This document shows positions 39,608-48,890 of a DNA stretch of 64,000 bases, piece after piece (position 1 is the stretch's first letter; every line of letters begins with the position of its first letter). The position numbers and the translations under genes were made by a program. The notes under the pieces were generated by a model. The model was not told the origin of the DNA. It did not search any database and saw only the letters and a list, made by a program, of their open reading frames with translations. Source of the stretch: Polyangia bacterium. GTDB lineage: Bacteria > Myxococcota_A > Polyangia > Palsa-1104 > JAEUJZ01. Location of the stretch: positions 74,882-138,881 of the forward strand of contig JAXLYF010000011.1 of assembly GCA_046351615.1 (NCBI GenBank), in the 5' to 3' direction.

Positions 39608-39640
39608 TGCCTGATTCCTGCCTGATTCCTGCCTGATTCC
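39608..39640. repeat. 11-bp tandem repeat TGCCTGATTCC x3 (GGAATCA core on minus strand), plus a degenerate copy CCCGATTCC at 39650
   Basis: Read directly; it lies 25 bp after the protease stop codon. Confidence 0.8.
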
Positions 39641-39720
39641 GTTCCCTTGCCCGATTCCATTGCGTTCGCTGCGTGTGTCCTTCGTTCGGACACCCTGCGC
39701 AGGCGCCGTGCTACCATGAC

Positions 39721-41238
39721 ATGATGCGGCGATCGGTGATCGTCTGGGGGCTTGGTGTTACGCTGTGCGGATTGGTCGCTGGATGTCTACAGCAGACGCC
39801 ACATCGCGTCACAGATCCGAGATCTTCCCTAGATACAGAGCGCGCATCCGTCCTTGCTCTTCGTCGCGCGCGCAGCGAACAAGCAGCTCTTATGGCAGAC
39901 AGACTTGCCGTTCAGGAGCCGCTCTTTACGTATGTCGCGCTGGTGATGGCAATGAGAGCCGCGCTGCCCGATCTGCGCAGCAGACAGCCACCGGATTTGC
40001 AGTCGTGGCAAGGACTTGCGATGGCCGTTCACTCGCTGTCTCGATCGAAGGCGATGCGTCCTGTCTTCACTCAGGAGTCTCGAGCGGTCGCCTTTTCTTC
40101 AGGTGGATCGCTGGCTGCGTGGGCCCGTCTGTCCGGTTCGCGTGTCCGTCTTGAGATCTGGGATCTCCGTACGCAGCGGATGCAAAAGTGGCTCGATGGA
40201 CTGACAGAGCAGCACCCATCGATCTGTTTGTCTGCTTCCGGGGATGTGGTTGCTGCAGTGCAAGCGGATCAGCTGCTGATCTGGAATCGAGACGGACAGC
40301 TCCGCACGGTGATGGGGAAGGACTTGCAGGCCGCTTCTCTTCACTGCGCAGAATCTGGACAGCACATCGCGGTAGGGACGACGCAGAACACCGTCCAGAT
40401 CTATGATCCGCGCACGGGGTTGCTCCGCCGAGAGTGGATGCTGGGACCGTCGTTGCCGTGGCAGCTTGCGCTGTCTGCAAACGGACGACGCTTGCTGACT
40501 GGACATCAGGACGGGAGCGTTCATCTGTGGGACGTGGCGACCGGACAGCGCGTACTCAGTCAGACCGCGTCACCAGCGGAGATCGATGCGGTCGCGATCT
40601 CTTCCGATGGGACAGCACTGGCGTTTGCAAGTCACGAGCTGCTGTGGATGTGGGATGTCGCAGCGGCAAGACCCAAGTACCTGCTGCAGCTGTCTGTTCC
40701 GATCGGCGCGCTCCGCTTTTCAGGAAACGGCAAGTATCTGCTGGTTGTTTCGGACATCGCCCGTGTGGTGAAGATCCTGACCGCAGACACGGGTGCAGCA
40801 GTTCGGAGCATCGTACCAAAGACTGGTGATGCGTGTGCGAGTCGCTCGGTCCCTGCGCTGTCCGCTGCACTTTCGGAGGATGGAAAGACGCTGTGGACTG
40901 CGCTGCATGAAGTCCGGCAGTGGGAGCTTCGAACCGATCGATCCGCCTCGTTTGGTGCGGATGTGTTCGAGTCGTTCTTTCCTCTTGTGGATGAGCCAAT
41001 AGACAATCGGATAAGTGATCCAGCGAGCCTGATGGATAGGCCGATTGAACGTGCTCCCACGCCGATTGTGGCGCAATCGCGGCAGCCATCCCTTCTTTCT
41101 CCCAATCCTGTGCGTCTGTATTCACTGGCTTGTACGCTACTTCGCGATGTTGCATCTAAGTCAGTTGACGGAAATCTAACTGTGTCATGGGTATCCGCGG
41201 ATGAGCTGCGCGAAGCCTTGTCCGCGTGTCCCAGGTGA
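39721..41238 (+). CDS. WD40-repeat lipoprotein
   Basis: MMRRSVIVWGLGVTLCGLVAGC lipobox. Repeated WD-like blocks (GHQDGSVHLWDVATGQ, LLWMWDVAAARP, VQIYDPRTG). Confidence 0.6.
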   Translation: MMRRSVIVWGLGVTLCGLVAGCLQQTPHRVTDPRSSLDTERASVLALRRARSEQAALMADRLAVQEPLFTYVALVMAMRAALPDLRSRQPPDLQSWQGLAMAVHSLSRSKAMRPVFTQESRAVAFSSGGSLAAWARLSGSRVRLEIWDLRTQRMQKWLDGLTEQHPSICLSASGDVVAAVQADQLLIWNRDGQLRTVMGKDLQAASLHCAESGQHIAVGTTQNTVQIYDPRTGLLRREWMLGPSLPWQLALSANGRRLLTGHQDGSVHLWDVATGQRVLSQTASPAEIDAVAISSDGTALAFASHELLWMWDVAAARPKYLLQLSVPIGALRFSGNGKYLLVVSDIARVVKILTADTGAAVRSIVPKTGDACASRSVPALSAALSEDGKTLWTALHEVRQWELRTDRSASFGADVFESFFPLVDEPIDNRISDPASLMDRPIERAPTPIVAQSRQPSLLSPNPVRLYSLACTLLRDVASKSVDGNLTVSWVSADELREALSACPR

Positions 41239-41412
41239 GCGAACGGCTCAGTCCAAAGCGCGCTCGAACAGCGGCTTTCTCGACGACAATGTGATCGGGA
41301 CAGATATGATGCATCCAGCGTGCGTCATTTTGATCGCGCTGGCACGCCATGATCTTTTTCACAAATCACGAATTGATGACATCACAGCGATTCATCGCGG
41401 TATGTTGAACGC

Positions 41413-47349: not shown

Positions 47350-47824
47350 GTATCCTCCCTGCTGGACCCTCAGGAGCGCGCTGTCCGCGACGCAGCTTCT
47401 GCGGGCCCAAGTGTGCTTCATTCATCAACAAAATGAAGAAATGCGATGAATGCTCTGCTGCTGCAATGGCAACTCTGATAGTGAAAGATGGTAGCGACAA
47501 ATCATGATATGTAAATCGGAAATATTTTTAATATGAAAATCGAATGCTTGACTTGTCTGTGTATGGGAAGGTGCCGAAAGGAGCTGGAAATTTTGAGTTC
47601 AGACGGAAAAATTCACGATGTCGGGCACTTGATGACAGCGTGATGTCCTTTGTGTTGATTTGTCTTTGCTTTTTATGTGAATGGATATTGAGCCTGAACT
47701 GTTTCGCTGTGAATGATTGATTTGATTGCGCAATTTTGAGGTTGTTGTTCAAAGCTCAAATAGATCATGTGGTTAGACCAAGACCGATGCTTCGTGTATC
47801 ATCCCTGCGCACAGGACTCCTTTC

Positions 47825-48838
47825 GTGTCGCAGACTTCGACTCCTTCCCACGCTTCTTCCTCGCTTCGCAAAGACTCCGATTCATCGGCTTCTCCTCCCT
47901 CTGATTCCGTCGCAGATCGTGGCACTTCTTCTGCGCGTGAATCGACACCGCCGGGTCGTGACTCTCAGGTTCGGCGTGATCTGCGCAGCTTGCGACTGTC
48001 GGCGATCTTGTATGTGGTGATGTTTGTTGCAAAGCTCGGGGTGTACTTTGCGACGTCGGTGATGGCGCTGCTCGCGGAAGCGATGCACACGCTGAGCGAT
48101 GTGATTGTGGTGGGATTTTTGCTGCTGGGACTGCGCTGGTCTGCCGATGAACCGGACGAAGAACACATGTTCGGACACGAGCGCGGACAGAGTGTGGCGG
48201 CCCTGGTTGCTGCGACGCTGTTTGTGTCCTTTACCAGCCTGCGTCTGTTTGAAGAATCGATTCCGCGTCTATTGGGAATCGGGCACTCCTTTTCGGCTCC
48301 ACAGCGGTTCGAGCTGGCGATCGGGGTGCTGCTGTTTTCGATGCTGATTGCCGCGATTCCGCTGTTCCAGATGCTGATTCACAAGCCAAGCGGAGCGGCT
48401 GCCAAGGCGCAGTTTCTGGAGCTTCTGAACGATGAGCTGTCGCTGATCGCGGCGCTGATCGGAACGGTGCTCACGCACTTGGGTTATCCGCTGGCGGATC
48501 CGGCTGCGACTGCGATTGTCGCGACGGTGATTGCGTGGAACGGAGTCGCTCTGTTTCGTGAAAACTTCGATCTAATTGTCGGTCGATCGCCGGGGCAGAA
48601 AGTGCTGACAGAGATCGCGCAGGTTGCGCTGTCGGTGGATGGCGTGCTGGATGCACACGATGTGCGGGCCGAGCGCTACGGGCACGGAATGATTCGCTGT
48701 GAGCTGCATATCACCGTCGTGCGTGGGACTCCGATTGAGGAAGCGCATCGCATCGATCAGGAAGTCCGCAGACGCATCATCCAGATCGAAGGAATGCGCA
48801 TGTGTCATGTTCACATCGATGCTTCGAAGAGCACGTAG
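47825..48838 (+). CDS. Cation diffusion facilitator (CDF) family metal transporter
   Basis: Six-TM core with HTLSD...D motifs and a C-terminal cytoplasmic domain (HDVRAERYGHGMIRCELHI). GTG start; the N-terminus is Ser-rich and disordered. Confidence 0.75.
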   Translation: MSQTSTPSHASSSLRKDSDSSASPPSDSVADRGTSSARESTPPGRDSQVRRDLRSLRLSAILYVVMFVAKLGVYFATSVMALLAEAMHTLSDVIVVGFLLLGLRWSADEPDEEHMFGHERGQSVAALVAATLFVSFTSLRLFEESIPRLLGIGHSFSAPQRFELAIGVLLFSMLIAAIPLFQMLIHKPSGAAAKAQFLELLNDELSLIAALIGTVLTHLGYPLADPAATAIVATVIAWNGVALFRENFDLIVGRSPGQKVLTEIAQVALSVDGVLDAHDVRAERYGHGMIRCELHITVVRGTPIEEAHRIDQEVRRRIIQIEGMRMCHVHIDASKST

Positions 48839-48890
48839 CGCAGTAGGAATCGCAGTGGGAATCGCAGTAGGAATCGCAGTAGGAATCGCG
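48839..48890. repeat. 12-bp tandem repeat CGCAGTAGGAAT x4 filling the CDF-RR intergenic space
   Basis: Copies start at 48839, 48851 (G variant), 48863 and 48875. The last AGGAA lies 9 nt upstream of the response-regulator ATG and probably serves as its RBS. Confidence 0.85.

What the first reader, a model, noticed from the sequence alone, without database searches (positions are those of the whole stretch)
39608..48890. Family of GGAATCG-core 11-12 bp tandem repeats placed immediately after stop codons at three separate loci
Three arrays share the hexamer GGAATC/GGAATT. They are (i) TGCCTGATTCC x3 at 39608..39640 after the serine protease, (ii) nine 11-bp units at 45990..46088 after the sulfotransferase, and (iii) CGCAGTAGGAAT x4 at 48839..48890 after the CDF transporter. 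An inverted CGCGATTCCGCG copy lies just 5' of array (ii). All start within 50 bp of a + strand stop codon. Array (iii) fills the entire 54-bp gap to the response-regulator ATG, and its last AGGAA lies 9 nt upstream of that ATG, a plausible RBS. Repeat slippage would therefore change RBS context and 3' UTRs. Such positioned microsatellites with a shared core are unusual in a GC-rich genome. They suggest either a binding motif for a repeat-recognising protein or a site-specific expansion mechanism.
Basis: seen in the sequence. Interest (0 to 1): 0.6.

Follow-up and report, generated by a model that had tools for sequence, protein, structure and literature searches.

The report
Hypervariable 11-bp GGAATCG repeats after genes
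Three short tandem repeats that share the core GGAATC belong to a dispersed family of fast-changing 11-12-bp repeats that sit just after stop codons in an uncultured sludge myxobacterium, resembling the known but unexplained GGGAATC repeats of Xanthomonas.

Summary
All three arrays are at the stated coordinates, and each starts 0-46 bp after a + strand stop codon. The window comes from an uncultured Polyangia (Myxococcota) bacterium from activated sludge.

- **Copy number varies.** Ten other assemblies of the same locus are 99.4-99.98% identical in flanking DNA. Array iii has 1-4 units, array ii has 8-11 and array i has 2-3.
- **A sister species also has an array.** It is about 87% identical and carries an array at the same transporter-regulator junction. 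That array has a different spacer and period but the same core.
- **The family is dispersed.** A metagenome scan found about 12 further loci with this genome's tetranucleotide signature.
- **Unit structure.** A near-invariant GGAATCG core is followed by 4-5 variable bases.
- **Placement.** Every array abuts a stop codon. Between 8 and 11 of 16 lie between convergent genes (background about 15%), and none lies between divergent genes.
- **Orientation** relative to the nearest gene is random (8:7).
- **Negative results.** I found no consistent RNA fold, no G-quadruplex potential, no Rfam match and no conserved flanks.

Best reading: these are slippage-driven minisatellites confined to gene 3' gaps, with a constrained core probably read on DNA. 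The function is unproven. I rate it a new variant of a known kind, interest 0.45.

The parts
39607..39640 (-). Array i: GGAATCAGGCA x3 (read on the minus strand), 24 bp after the stop of the trypsin-like protease gene
   Evidence: It has 2 or 3 units in other assemblies. It is absent from four assemblies because of the 39584-40657 deletion.
39641..39665 (-). Degenerate edge of array i (GGAATCGGGCAAGGGAAC), holding a fourth core at 39653-39658
45990..46088 (+). Array ii: nine 11-bp units (GGAATYG plus 4 variable nt). It lies in the convergent gap between the sulfotransferase gene (stop at 45943) and the minus-strand gene 46096-47421 (stop at 46096).
   Evidence: It has 8-11 units, with nine different alleles among ten assemblies. 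The first two and last three units are constant.
45959..45974 (.). Perfect hairpin GACGCG-ATTC-CGCGTC containing an inverted copy of the core, 15 bp upstream of array ii
   Evidence: The RNA fold pairs this segment with the last unit of the array.
48839..48892 (+). Array iii: (CGCAGTR GGAAT) x4.2 with a 12-bp period. It fills the whole gap between the stop of the cation-efflux (CDF) gene and the ATG of the OmpR-type response regulator.
   Evidence: It has 1, 2, 3 or 4 units, with eight alleles among eleven sequences. The sister species has (GGAATCGGTTA) x4 or x8 at the same junction.
48881..48885 (+). AGGAA of the last unit, which is the Shine-Dalgarno-like element of the response-regulator gene (ATG at 48893)
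   Evidence: It is retained in the one-unit allele of L003 as GGGAA.
44864..44871 (+). Single-copy TAGGAATC, 4 nt upstream of the sulfotransferase ATG. It shows that the core also occurs unrepeated as a ribosome-binding-site-like element.
7020..7058 (-). Weak possible relative: a CT-rich 16-bp repeat x2.4 (CGCTTCGATTCCTTCC) with one GATTCC, lying after a hairpin that follows the stop at 6988
38603..39583 (+). Trypsin-like protease gene whose stop codon precedes array i
44876..45943 (+). Sulfotransferase gene whose stop codon precedes array ii
46096..47421 (-). Gene with no Pfam match (417 aa as called in other assemblies). Its stop lies 7 bp from the end of array ii.
47825..48838 (+). Cation-diffusion-facilitator gene whose stop codon abuts array iii
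48893..49588 (+). OmpR-family response-regulator gene that starts at the end of array iii

Best explanation
The three arrays belong to a dispersed, lineage-specific family of hypervariable minisatellites in an uncultured Polyangia (Myxococcota) bacterium from activated sludge.

**Unit.** Each unit is a constant 7-nt core, GGAATCG, plus a variable 4-nt (sometimes 5-nt) spacer. That gives one core per turn of the DNA helix.

**Shown**
- The arrays gain and lose whole units much faster than the flanking DNA changes, as expected for replication slippage or unequal exchange.
- They occur only in the short non-coding gaps at gene 3' ends. These are stop-to-stop gaps between convergent genes and stop-to-start gaps inside operons.
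- Their orientation relative to the genes is random.
- The core almost never varies, while the spacer varies freely.

**Inferred**
- The arrays persist at 3' ends because promoter regions and coding DNA do not tolerate them.
- The core is kept because it is read as double-stranded DNA by a factor that binds once per helical turn. Candidates are a nucleoid-associated protein, a roadblock or insulator protein in terminator gaps, or a modification enzyme.
- An RNA or ribosome signal is less likely.
- Where an array happens to face a downstream start codon (array iii), its last unit doubles as the Shine-Dalgarno element. Copy number then tunes the spacing between the two cistrons.
For: **Identity of the organism.** NCBI names the window's proteins as 'MAG: Polyangia bacterium'.

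**Copy-number change**
- In ten assemblies that are 99.4-99.98% identical in flanks, the gaps differ by exact unit multiples.
- Array iii has gaps of 18, 30, 42 or 54 nt. Array ii has gaps of 141, 152, 163 or 174 nt. Array i has gaps of 122 or 133 nt.
- Units are reshuffled inside the arrays while the edge units stay constant.
- Other loci of the family also vary: 4 against 7 units, and 4 against 3 units.

**Evolutionary depth.** The sister species (about 87% identical) has (GGAATCGGTTA) x4 or x8 at the same CDF-regulator junction.

**Dispersal**
- The metagenome scan gave about 12 further distinct loci whose tetranucleotide signature correlates 0.84-0.95 with the window. The sister-species loci score 0.94-0.95, and the best clearly unrelated locus 0.81.
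- Some loci come from the same assemblies, with the same coverage, as the window locus.
- One more array comes from a Myxococcales MAG (L095).

**Core against spacer**
- Information content is 1.5-2.0 bits per core position and 0.2-0.6 bits per spacer position.
- Within arrays, the 7 core positions show 6 extra states and the 4 spacer positions show 62.

**Placement**
- Every array lies 0-37 bp from a stop codon, except L095 at 89 bp. Several stop codons lie inside the array.
- Between 8 and 11 of 16 loci are convergent gaps, against 15% of gaps in the window (p about 1e-3 to 1e-6). None is divergent.

**Orientation.** It is 8 sense to 7 antisense relative to the nearest gene.

**No mobile-element signature.** The flanks are not conserved.

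**No consistent RNA structure.** The z-scores are -1.9, +1.75 and +1.0.

**Ribosome-binding-site role.** Array iii and L180 both end in TAGGAATCG(N2-4)ATG. AGGA/GGAG elements precede many confident starts.
Against: **No direct test.** No binding protein, methylase or transcript data were available, so the DNA-reading step is inference only.

**Weaknesses in the core-against-spacer contrast**
- It is partly inflated. The extra loci were found with a pattern that demands three perfect cores, and I delimited arrays by GGAAT.
- Degenerate cores do occur at array edges (GGAGTCG, GGAAGCC, GGACATCG).
- For array ii alone, which was not selected that way, the test is only about p = 2e-3.

**Points that weaken a specific role for GGAATCG**
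- The sister species has an 11-bp array with a different constant block (ACAGAG) and the same architecture. The 'core plus variable block' pattern and the 11-bp period may therefore be properties of the mutational process rather than of a GGAATCG reader.
- Array i is deleted in 4 of 8 assemblies without visible consequence.
- Copy number seems unconstrained.

**Limits of the methods**
- Gene calls at the extra loci are crude (ORF length plus GC3).
- Assignment of loci to the clade rests on tetranucleotide similarity.
Confidence: 0.55

Rival explanations
1. The arrays are purely neutral or selfish slippage-prone DNA with no function and no reader. They arise from local seeds and survive only where they do no harm, in 3' gaps. 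The apparent conservation of the core comes from recent common ancestry of units, homogenisation inside arrays, exchange between arrays anchored on the core, and the way the arrays were found.
For: - The arrays are hypervariable and dispensable. Array i is deleted in four assemblies, and copy number ranges from 1 to 11.
- Edge units are degenerate, as in ordinary minisatellites.
- An unrelated 11-bp array (ACAGAG core) occurs in the same kind of position.
- The window's orthologous junction holds a single GTACAGAC, which fits local seeding.
- The same unit types recur at different loci (GGAATCGGTTA at 6 loci), as inter-array exchange would produce.
- Permuted-core controls show that GGAATCG is not generally array-prone.
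Against: - Neutral point mutation should hit the 7 core positions more often than the 4 spacer positions. Observed counts are 6 against 62. In array ii, which was not ascertained through the core, they are 1 against about 8.
- Interiors with heterogeneous spacers but intact cores (array ii, L186, L208, L216) are hard to explain by homogenisation alone.
- The same junction keeps a GGAATCG array across about 13% sequence divergence, although the spacer and period have been replaced.
Confidence: 0.3
2. The arrays act at the RNA level. Repeated AGGA/GGGA motifs in 3' UTRs and intercistronic RNA would bind a CsrA-like protein, ribosomal protein S1 or the 30S subunit. They would work as sponges or standby sites that tune translation of neighbouring genes.
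For: - Every unit carries a GGA, usually as AGGA.
- Array iii is less structured than shuffled sequences (z = +1.75), as a ribosome landing pad would be.
- The last unit of array iii and of L180 sits 6-8 nt before an ATG.
- A single TAGGAATC serves as the ribosome-binding site of the sulfotransferase gene.
- Similar proposals exist for the TAACTGA repeats (PMC4679880).
Against: - Orientation relative to the nearest gene is 8 sense to 7 antisense.
- Three co-directional arrays (array i, L205, L095) would give the C-rich strand in the mRNA.
- Most arrays lie in convergent gaps with no downstream start codon.
- There is no Rfam match and no consistent hairpin that would present the GGA.
- I could not check whether this genome has a CsrA gene.
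Confidence: 0.1
3. The arrays are G-quadruplex-forming repeats that work like the GGGAATC heptamers of Xanthomonas.
For: They share the core with a repeat shown to form G4 in vitro, and they have the same positional bias (PMC4692102).
Against: - Units carry GG, rarely GGG, with 8-9-nt loops.
- No canonical G4 pattern (G3+ x4, loops of 7 or fewer) exists on either strand of any of the three arrays.
Confidence: 0.02
4. The arrays are contingency loci in the classical sense, in which copy number switches a gene on and off.
For: Array iii changes the distance between the CDF stop and the regulator start in 12-nt steps. This could alter translational coupling of a metal-efflux two-component operon.
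Against: - The arrays are not in promoters or the 5' coding regions of genes.
- The ribosome-binding-site-to-ATG distance is unchanged by copy number.
- Most arrays lie between two stop codons, where no on/off switch is possible.
- Neighbouring genes show no surface or antigen theme.
Confidence: 0.05
5. The arrays are operator sites of the adjacent OmpR-family response regulator, since proteins of this family bind direct repeats about 11 bp apart.
For: Array iii touches the regulator gene, and 11-12-bp direct repeats are the typical geometry for this family (established knowledge of PhoB/OmpR boxes).
Against: - There is no room for a promoter between the array and the ATG.
- The same repeats occur at 15 or more unrelated loci, almost all at gene 3' ends.
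- Copy number varies freely.
Confidence: 0.02

Closest known systems
GGGAATC / GGGNATC heptamer simple-sequence repeats of Xanthomonas and Nostoc (Rehm et al. 2015, PMC4692102)
   Same: - The core is almost the same (GGAATC).
- Both are dispersed over the genome, and 89-93% of the Xanthomonas repeats are intergenic.
- Both usually lie within about 50 bp of the upstream gene's stop codon.
- Both are common between co-directional and convergent genes and rare between divergent ones.
- Copy number differs between close relatives.
- An inverted partner is frequent.
- The function of the Xanthomonas repeats is also unknown.
   Different: - The period here is 11-12 bp, not 7.
- Each unit has a variable spacer.
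- There is no G3 tract and no G-quadruplex potential.
- The host is a myxobacterium.
- The published preference for four units is not seen.
Ordinary bacterial VNTRs / minisatellites that evolve by slipped-strand mispairing
   Same: - The units are head to tail.
- Length changes in whole units between near-identical strains.
- Interior units turn over while edge units are stable and degenerate.
   Different: - Many loci share one core.
- There is a strict core/spacer division.
- The arrays are almost exclusively next to stop codons.
TAACTGA heptamer direct repeats of Beggiatoaceae, cyanobacteria and Bacteroidetes (MacGregor 2015, PMC4679880), and the cyanobacterial STRR heptamers (from my own knowledge)
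   Same: - They are abundant intergenic short direct repeats of one sequence.
- Copy number varies.
- The function is unknown and protein binding has been suspected.
   Different: - Those repeats are heptamers without spacers.
- They lie mostly just upstream of start codons.
- The arrays here are 11-12-mers that hug stop codons and favour convergent gaps.
Constant-length, variable-sequence tandem repeats of Bacillus and other bacteria (Subirana and Messeguer 2021, PMC8161180)
   Same: A lineage prefers one repeat length while the sequence differs between families. Here 11 bp is shared by the GGAATCG arrays and the ACAGAG array.
   Different: - Those repeats are 20-21 or 52 nt long.
- Here one family dominates and has a conserved core.
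REP/BIME elements of enterobacteria (established knowledge)
   Same: - Both are dispersed non-coding repeats confined to 3' UTRs and gaps between co-directional or convergent genes.
- Some copies here pair with an inverted core to form hairpins.
   Different: - REP units are imperfect palindromes of about 35 bp, mobilised by RAYT transposases.
- The units here are short direct repeats without a palindromic body or conserved flanks.
Iteron or centromere arrays such as parC of plasmid R1 (11-bp repeats bound by ParR; established knowledge)
   Same: Both are direct repeats of about 11 bp in helical phase with a conserved recognition core.
   Different: - No partition or replication genes are nearby.
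- There are many chromosomal loci.
- Copy number varies freely.

Membership tests
GGGNATC heptamer SSR family (Rehm et al. 2015) | Head-to-tail heptamer units GGGAATC/GGGANTN | tested here: not met
   The periods are 11, 11 and 12 bp, and each unit is a core plus a 4-5-nt spacer.
GGGNATC heptamer SSR family (Rehm et al. 2015) | Four or more G3 tracts, giving G-quadruplex potential | tested here: not met
   No canonical G4 pattern exists on either strand of any array.
GGGNATC heptamer SSR family (Rehm et al. 2015) | Intergenic, close to the upstream gene's stop codon, and rare between divergent genes | tested here: met
   The nearest stop codon lies 0-37 bp away (89 bp at L095). Convergent gaps account for 8-11 of 16 loci and divergent gaps for none.
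GGGNATC heptamer SSR family (Rehm et al. 2015) | Copy number differs between related genomes | tested here: met
VNTR / minisatellite evolving by slippage | Whole-unit length polymorphism among strains with conserved flanks | tested here: met
   Gap lengths differ by multiples of 11 or 12 bp, while the flanks are 99.4-99.98% identical.
VNTR / minisatellite evolving by slippage | Variable interior with stable, degenerate edge units | tested here: met
   In array ii the first two and last three units are constant in all alleles. Degenerate edge units are seen.
Phase-variation contingency locus | Repeat tract inside a promoter (between the -35 and -10 elements) or in the 5' coding region, so that unit changes switch the gene on or off | tested here: not met
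   All arrays lie after stop codons. None lies in a divergent or promoter gap. In array iii the distance from the ribosome-binding site to the ATG does not depend on copy number.
REP/BIME or MITE-type mobile intergenic repeat | Palindromic unit or terminal inverted repeats, with conserved ends or a target-site duplication | tested here: not met
   The flanks of 18 arrays share nothing. Only 5 of about 16 have an inverted core nearby.
REP/BIME or MITE-type mobile intergenic repeat | A cognate RAYT or other transposase in the genome | not testable with these tools
   The whole genome was not available.
CsrB/RsmZ-type protein-titrating small RNA | Many GGA motifs presented in hairpin loops of a discrete transcript with its own promoter and terminator | tested here: not met
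   GGA motifs are present, but there is no consistent fold. No promoter-like site lies next to the arrays. There is no Rfam match. The arrays occur in both orientations.
CsrB/RsmZ-type protein-titrating small RNA | A CsrA/RsmA homologue encoded by the organism | not testable with these tools
   The genome is not available as a whole. None is encoded in the window (partial annotation only).
Iteron / centromere array (ParR-parC type) | Array of about 11-bp direct repeats with a conserved recognition core, in helical phase | tested here: met
Iteron / centromere array (ParR-parC type) | Adjacent partition or replication genes, and one or a few loci per replicon | tested here: not met
   The neighbours are protease, sulfotransferase, CDF and two-component-system genes. 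There are 15 or more loci.

The most novel reading that the evidence does not exclude
The GGAATCG arrays are phased DNA-binding platforms, with one site per helical turn and a length that can be adjusted by slippage. An as yet unknown protein would coat the gaps between convergent genes and operon junctions in this myxobacterial lineage. It would act as a transcription roadblock or insulator, or as a supercoil or nucleoid anchor. That would be a new kind of protein-dependent terminator or insulator element whose strength evolves by copy number. It could also point to a function for the long-unexplained GGGAATC repeats of Xanthomonas.
Probability: 0.15. Interest if true: 0.75.

Novelty: new variant of a known kind. 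Interest (0 to 1): 0.45.

Why it matters
Dispersed short-repeat families such as GGGAATC in Xanthomonas and the STRR and TAACTGA repeats in cyanobacteria and Beggiatoaceae have been known for years, yet none has an assigned function. This case adds a myxobacterial family with the same core but a helical-turn period.

Natural population data let mutation and constraint be separated here:
- Spacers and copy number change freely.
- The core and the position next to stop codons do not change.

That pattern gives a concrete handle for experiments. One can scramble the core while keeping the period, or vary the copy number, to find out what such repeats do at gene ends.

In practice the arrays are also very fine strain markers for an abundant, uncultured activated-sludge myxobacterium. 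They are also a source of assembly breaks.

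Tried and rejected
1. **G-quadruplex formation.** Rejected by the sequence rules.
2. **Known RNA families.** None found at the gathering threshold in the whole window, and none at E<=1 around array ii.
3. **Stable RNA structure.** Only array ii is slightly more structured than shuffles (z = -1.9). 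Arrays i and iii are less structured than shuffles.
4. **tRNA T-arm remnants or integrase attachment sites.** I suspected these because CGATTCC resembles GGTTCGATTCC. No tRNA genes occur in the window or in 15 family loci.
5. **MITE or REP-type mobile element.** The flanks are not conserved.
6. **GGAATCG as a universally array-prone sequence.**
   - The viral collection gave 25 hits, but 18 are one gut-phage family. That leaves about 7, against 7, 6, 0 and 7 for four permuted cores.
   - The genome-collection scan returned mostly heptamer (GGGAATC)n arrays and coding 6/12/15-mers from many phyla.
7. **Window-wide excess of GGAATC as a signal.** It is mostly a codon-frame effect.
8. **Intrinsic terminators at the arrays.** The consensus scan found no more than in shuffles (13 against 9.6). 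Individual loci (L147, L209) do show a hairpin plus a T-run built on or next to the array.
9. **Extending the window and checking the 43-bp repeat in other strains.** This failed. The contigs were short, broke at the repeat, or the exact protein was not on record.
10. **More distant relatives.** Four loci reached through homologues of the unknown gene contain no GGAATCG arrays.
11. **Ideas considered but left as speculation.**
    - The C-rich strand as a Rho loading site, with YC dinucleotides every 11 nt.
    - CGG every 11 nt as a repeated RNA-polymerase pause consensus.
    - The random orientation and the unrelated ACAGAG array argue against both as general explanations.

Full report

Yes.
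- Array i is at 39607-39640. It is 11 bp x3.1 at 100% identity and reads GGAATCAGGCA on the minus strand. A degenerate fourth core lies at 39653.
- Array ii is at 45990-46088, with nine 11-bp units.
- Array iii is at 48839-48889, 12 bp x4.2.

ORF listing and Pfam identify the neighbouring genes.
- A trypsin-like protease gene has its stop at 39583.
- A sulfotransferase gene has its stop at 45943.
- A cation-diffusion-facilitator (CDF) gene has its stop at 48838.
- An OmpR-type response-regulator gene has its ATG at 48893.

The arrays therefore begin 24, 46 and 0 bp after + strand stop codons, and array iii fills the whole 54-bp gap. The 'inverted copy' is part of a perfect hairpin, GACGCG-ATTC-CGCGTC, at 45959-45974. 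It is only 7 bp from the stop of the minus-strand gene 46096-47421.

Three independent 11-12-bp units sharing a hexamer by chance is improbable, roughly 3e-4 by my arithmetic. The general excess of GGAATC in the window (77 found against 29 expected) is not part of the phenomenon. Outside the arrays it is mostly coding and frame-biased, matching GAT-TCC.

**2. Source organism and population variation**

Exact look-ups name the window's proteins 'MAG: Polyangia bacterium' or 'Myxococcales bacterium'.

The response regulator is encoded on many metagenome contigs, mostly from activated sludge. I fetched ten copies of the locus. Their flanks are 99.4-99.98% identical to the window, yet the arrays differ.
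- Array iii has 1, 2, 3 or 4 units (gaps of 18, 30, 42 or 54 nt), with eight alleles in eleven sequences.
- Array ii has 8-11 units, with nine alleles in ten sequences. The first two and last three units are constant, and the interior units are duplicated, lost and reshuffled.
- Array i has 2 or 3 units.

All arrays are shorter than the assemblers' k-mers, so these differences are not assembly artefacts. In four of the eight assemblies that cover this region, a 1074-bp deletion (window 39584-40657) removes array i and the 5' two-thirds of the WD40 gene. These are true hypervariable VNTRs.

**3. Evolutionary depth**

I reached a sister species through a homologue of the unknown gene. It is about 87% identical (GCA_016794365.1 and three metagenome contigs) and keeps the gene order.

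At the orthologous CDF-regulator junction it carries an array of (GGAATCGGTTA), x4 in one assembly and x8 in three. The array overlaps the CDF stop codon. It has the same core as array iii, but a different spacer and an 11-bp instead of a 12-bp period. The unit GGAATCGGTTA is identical to units of array ii in the window.

The sister species has no array after the sulfotransferase or protease genes. Between the epimerase stop and the sulfotransferase start it has another 11-bp VNTR with an unrelated constant block, ACAGAG plus YRCR, with 14 against 15 units. The 11-bp period and the 'constant block plus variable block' design are therefore not unique to GGAATCG.

**4. A dispersed family**

- It returned mostly heptamer (GGGAATC)n arrays from Xanthomonas, Luteimonas, Moorena and many other phyla, together with coding 6/12/15-mers.
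- It also found one Myxococcales MAG with (GGAATCGAATR)x10 in a non-coding gap (L095).

The metagenome scan for three cores 11 bp apart gave 120 loci.
- Eighteen of them correlate 0.84-0.95 with the window in tetranucleotide usage. The sister-species loci score 0.94-0.95, and the best clearly unrelated locus 0.81.
- Some come from the same assemblies, with the same coverage, as the window locus, and one from the same MAG assembly (WBZX01).
- After merging duplicates, this makes about 12 further loci.

A logo built from 55 locus-unit pairs shows 1.5-2.0 bits at each core position and 0.2-0.6 bits at spacer positions. Within arrays there are 6 extra states in the 7 core positions against 62 in the 4 spacer positions. 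This contrast is partly inflated by how the loci were found. Degenerate cores do occur at array edges. Array ii was not ascertained through the core, and it shows the same bias (1 against about 8 events, p about 2e-3).

The same spacer types recur at different loci: GGTTA at six, GAATA at four and GAGTA at three. The flanks share nothing, so this is not a MITE. Five of about 16 arrays have an inverted core 8-25 nt away, giving a 7-8-bp hairpin. In L147 the hairpin is followed by TTTT.

**5. Placement and orientation**

I used crude gene calls (ORF length plus GC1/2/3 pattern).
- Every array lies 0-37 bp from a stop codon, except L095 at 89 bp.
- In several loci the stop codon is inside the array.
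- Between 8 and 11 of 16 loci are gaps between convergent genes, five are stop-to-start gaps between co-directional genes, and none is a divergent gap.
- In the window, convergent gaps are 15% of gaps by number and 14% by length. That gives p of about 1e-3 to 1e-6.

Part of the closeness to stop codons is automatic. The units contain TAG, TGA or TAA, and an 11-nt period brings a stop into every frame. The absence from promoter gaps is not automatic.

The orientation of the G-rich strand relative to the nearest gene is 8 sense to 7 antisense.

**6. What it is not**

- No Rfam family matches.
- There is no consistent RNA fold. The z-scores are -1.9 for array ii, +1.75 for array iii and +1.0 for array i.
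- No canonical G-quadruplex can form.
- No tRNA genes lie nearby.
- There is no excess of intrinsic-terminator or promoter consensus sites.
- GGAATCG is not generally array-prone. In viral contigs there are about 7 non-redundant 11-bp arrays, against 0-7 for four permuted cores.

**7. How it most likely works**

*Shown.* Whole-unit gain and loss runs far faster than point substitution. The arrays are confined to gene 3' gaps. The core is constant, the spacer varies and the orientation is random.

*Inferred.*
- Slippage or unequal exchange generates the variation, and the near-palindrome AATCGNTT inside many units may help.
- Arrays survive only where they do not disrupt promoters or ORFs.
- The core is under a constraint that acts on double-stranded DNA, because both orientations are equally common and there is one core per helical turn.

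My preferred reading is a factor that binds or modifies GGAATCG on one face of the helix in terminator gaps. I give the whole package a confidence of 0.55. Within it, the VNTR part is about 0.9 and the DNA-reader part about 0.3.

Locally, array iii and L180 end in TAGGAATCG(N2-4)ATG, so the last unit is the Shine-Dalgarno element. A single TAGGAATC also precedes the sulfotransferase ATG. Copy number changes the distance between the cistrons but not the distance from the ribosome-binding site to the ATG.

The main rival, at 0.3, is neutral or selfish slippage-prone DNA whose core is maintained by shared ancestry and exchange between arrays. RNA-level GGA binding (0.1), a contingency switch (0.05), G-quadruplex formation (0.02) and operators of the adjacent regulator (0.02) fit the data less well.

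**8. Comparison with what is known**

The closest described system is the GGGAATC/GGGNATC heptamer family of Xanthomonas and Nostoc (PMC4692102).
- Shared: the core, the intergenic bias, the closeness to the upstream stop codon, the rarity between divergent genes, variable copy number, frequent inverted partners and an unknown function.
- Different: the period (11-12 against 7), the variable spacer, the lack of G3 tracts and G4 potential, and the host phylum. I therefore do not file the arrays as members of that family.

Other relatives in kind:
- The TAACTGA repeats (PMC4679880).
- The constant-length tandem repeats of Bacillus (PMC8161180).
- REP/BIME elements.
- ParR-type 11-bp iterons.

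**9. Verdict**

The feature is real and is correctly described. The binding-protein part is plausible but unproven. The finding is a new variant of a known, still unexplained kind of bacterial repeat. Interest 0.45.

Noticed in passing
window 21276-21498: A 43-bp tandem repeat x5.2 (92% matches) fills the convergent gap 21223-21525. Two other assemblies that carry the neighbouring 1045-aa gene end about 96 bp past its stop, so their contigs break in this repeat. It is a second, unrelated tandem repeat in a convergent gap of the same genome.
   Followed up: partly
window 39584-40657: A 1074-bp deletion starts at the first base after the protease stop codon. It removes array i and the 5' two-thirds of the WD40-repeat gene in 4 of 8 assemblies of the same species (L001, L004, L006, L007).
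   Followed up: yes
window 46096-47421 (minus strand) and L131 10001-11275: This gene has no Pfam match and sits in the lowest-GC part of the window (0.53). In the sister species the flanks are about 87% identical and the neighbouring regulator is at least 90% identical. Yet the same slot there holds a homologue only 38% identical, on the opposite strand, preceded by a 476-bp AT-rich region. It looks like a fast-evolving or replaced cassette.
   Followed up: partly
L131 8291-8426 (sister species; also L132-L134): An 11-bp VNTR with a different constant block (ACAGAG plus variable YRCR) has 14 against 15 units between assemblies. It starts 2 nt after the epimerase stop codon. The window has only a single GTACAGAC at the orthologous junction.
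   Followed up: partly
L260 2954-15101 (JGI Ga0209164_1000057, type VI secretion operon, GC 0.555): In an unrelated metagenome contig, 7-8-bp tandem repeats (TAAGCTGT, AGTGAAA, AGCTGATG, TGAGCTGA x11 and others) start at or next to stop codons at six or more gene junctions. It is the same kind of arrangement with quite different units.
   Followed up: no
L263-L286 (IMG/VR contigs, GC about 0.42): A family of gut-associated viral contigs carries a conserved set of three GGGAATCG cores exactly 11 bp apart (GTTGGGAATCGTTYGGGAATCGKTTGGGAATCGGTTG). The same sequence occurs in human-gut metagenome contigs (for example L139 and L175). It may be a protein-binding site.
   Followed up: no
window 6989-7075 and 43172-43270: After the stop codons at 6988 and 43171 there is a GC-rich hairpin followed by a long CT-rich tract full of TTCC/CTTCC, rather than a plain T-run. 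This may be the local form of transcription terminator in this organism.
   Followed up: no
window 48836-48895: The CDF stop codon TAG and the regulator ATG are in the same reading frame with no further stop between them. The 12-nt unit keeps this frame at every copy number, so read-through of the TAG would fuse the two proteins.
   Followed up: no
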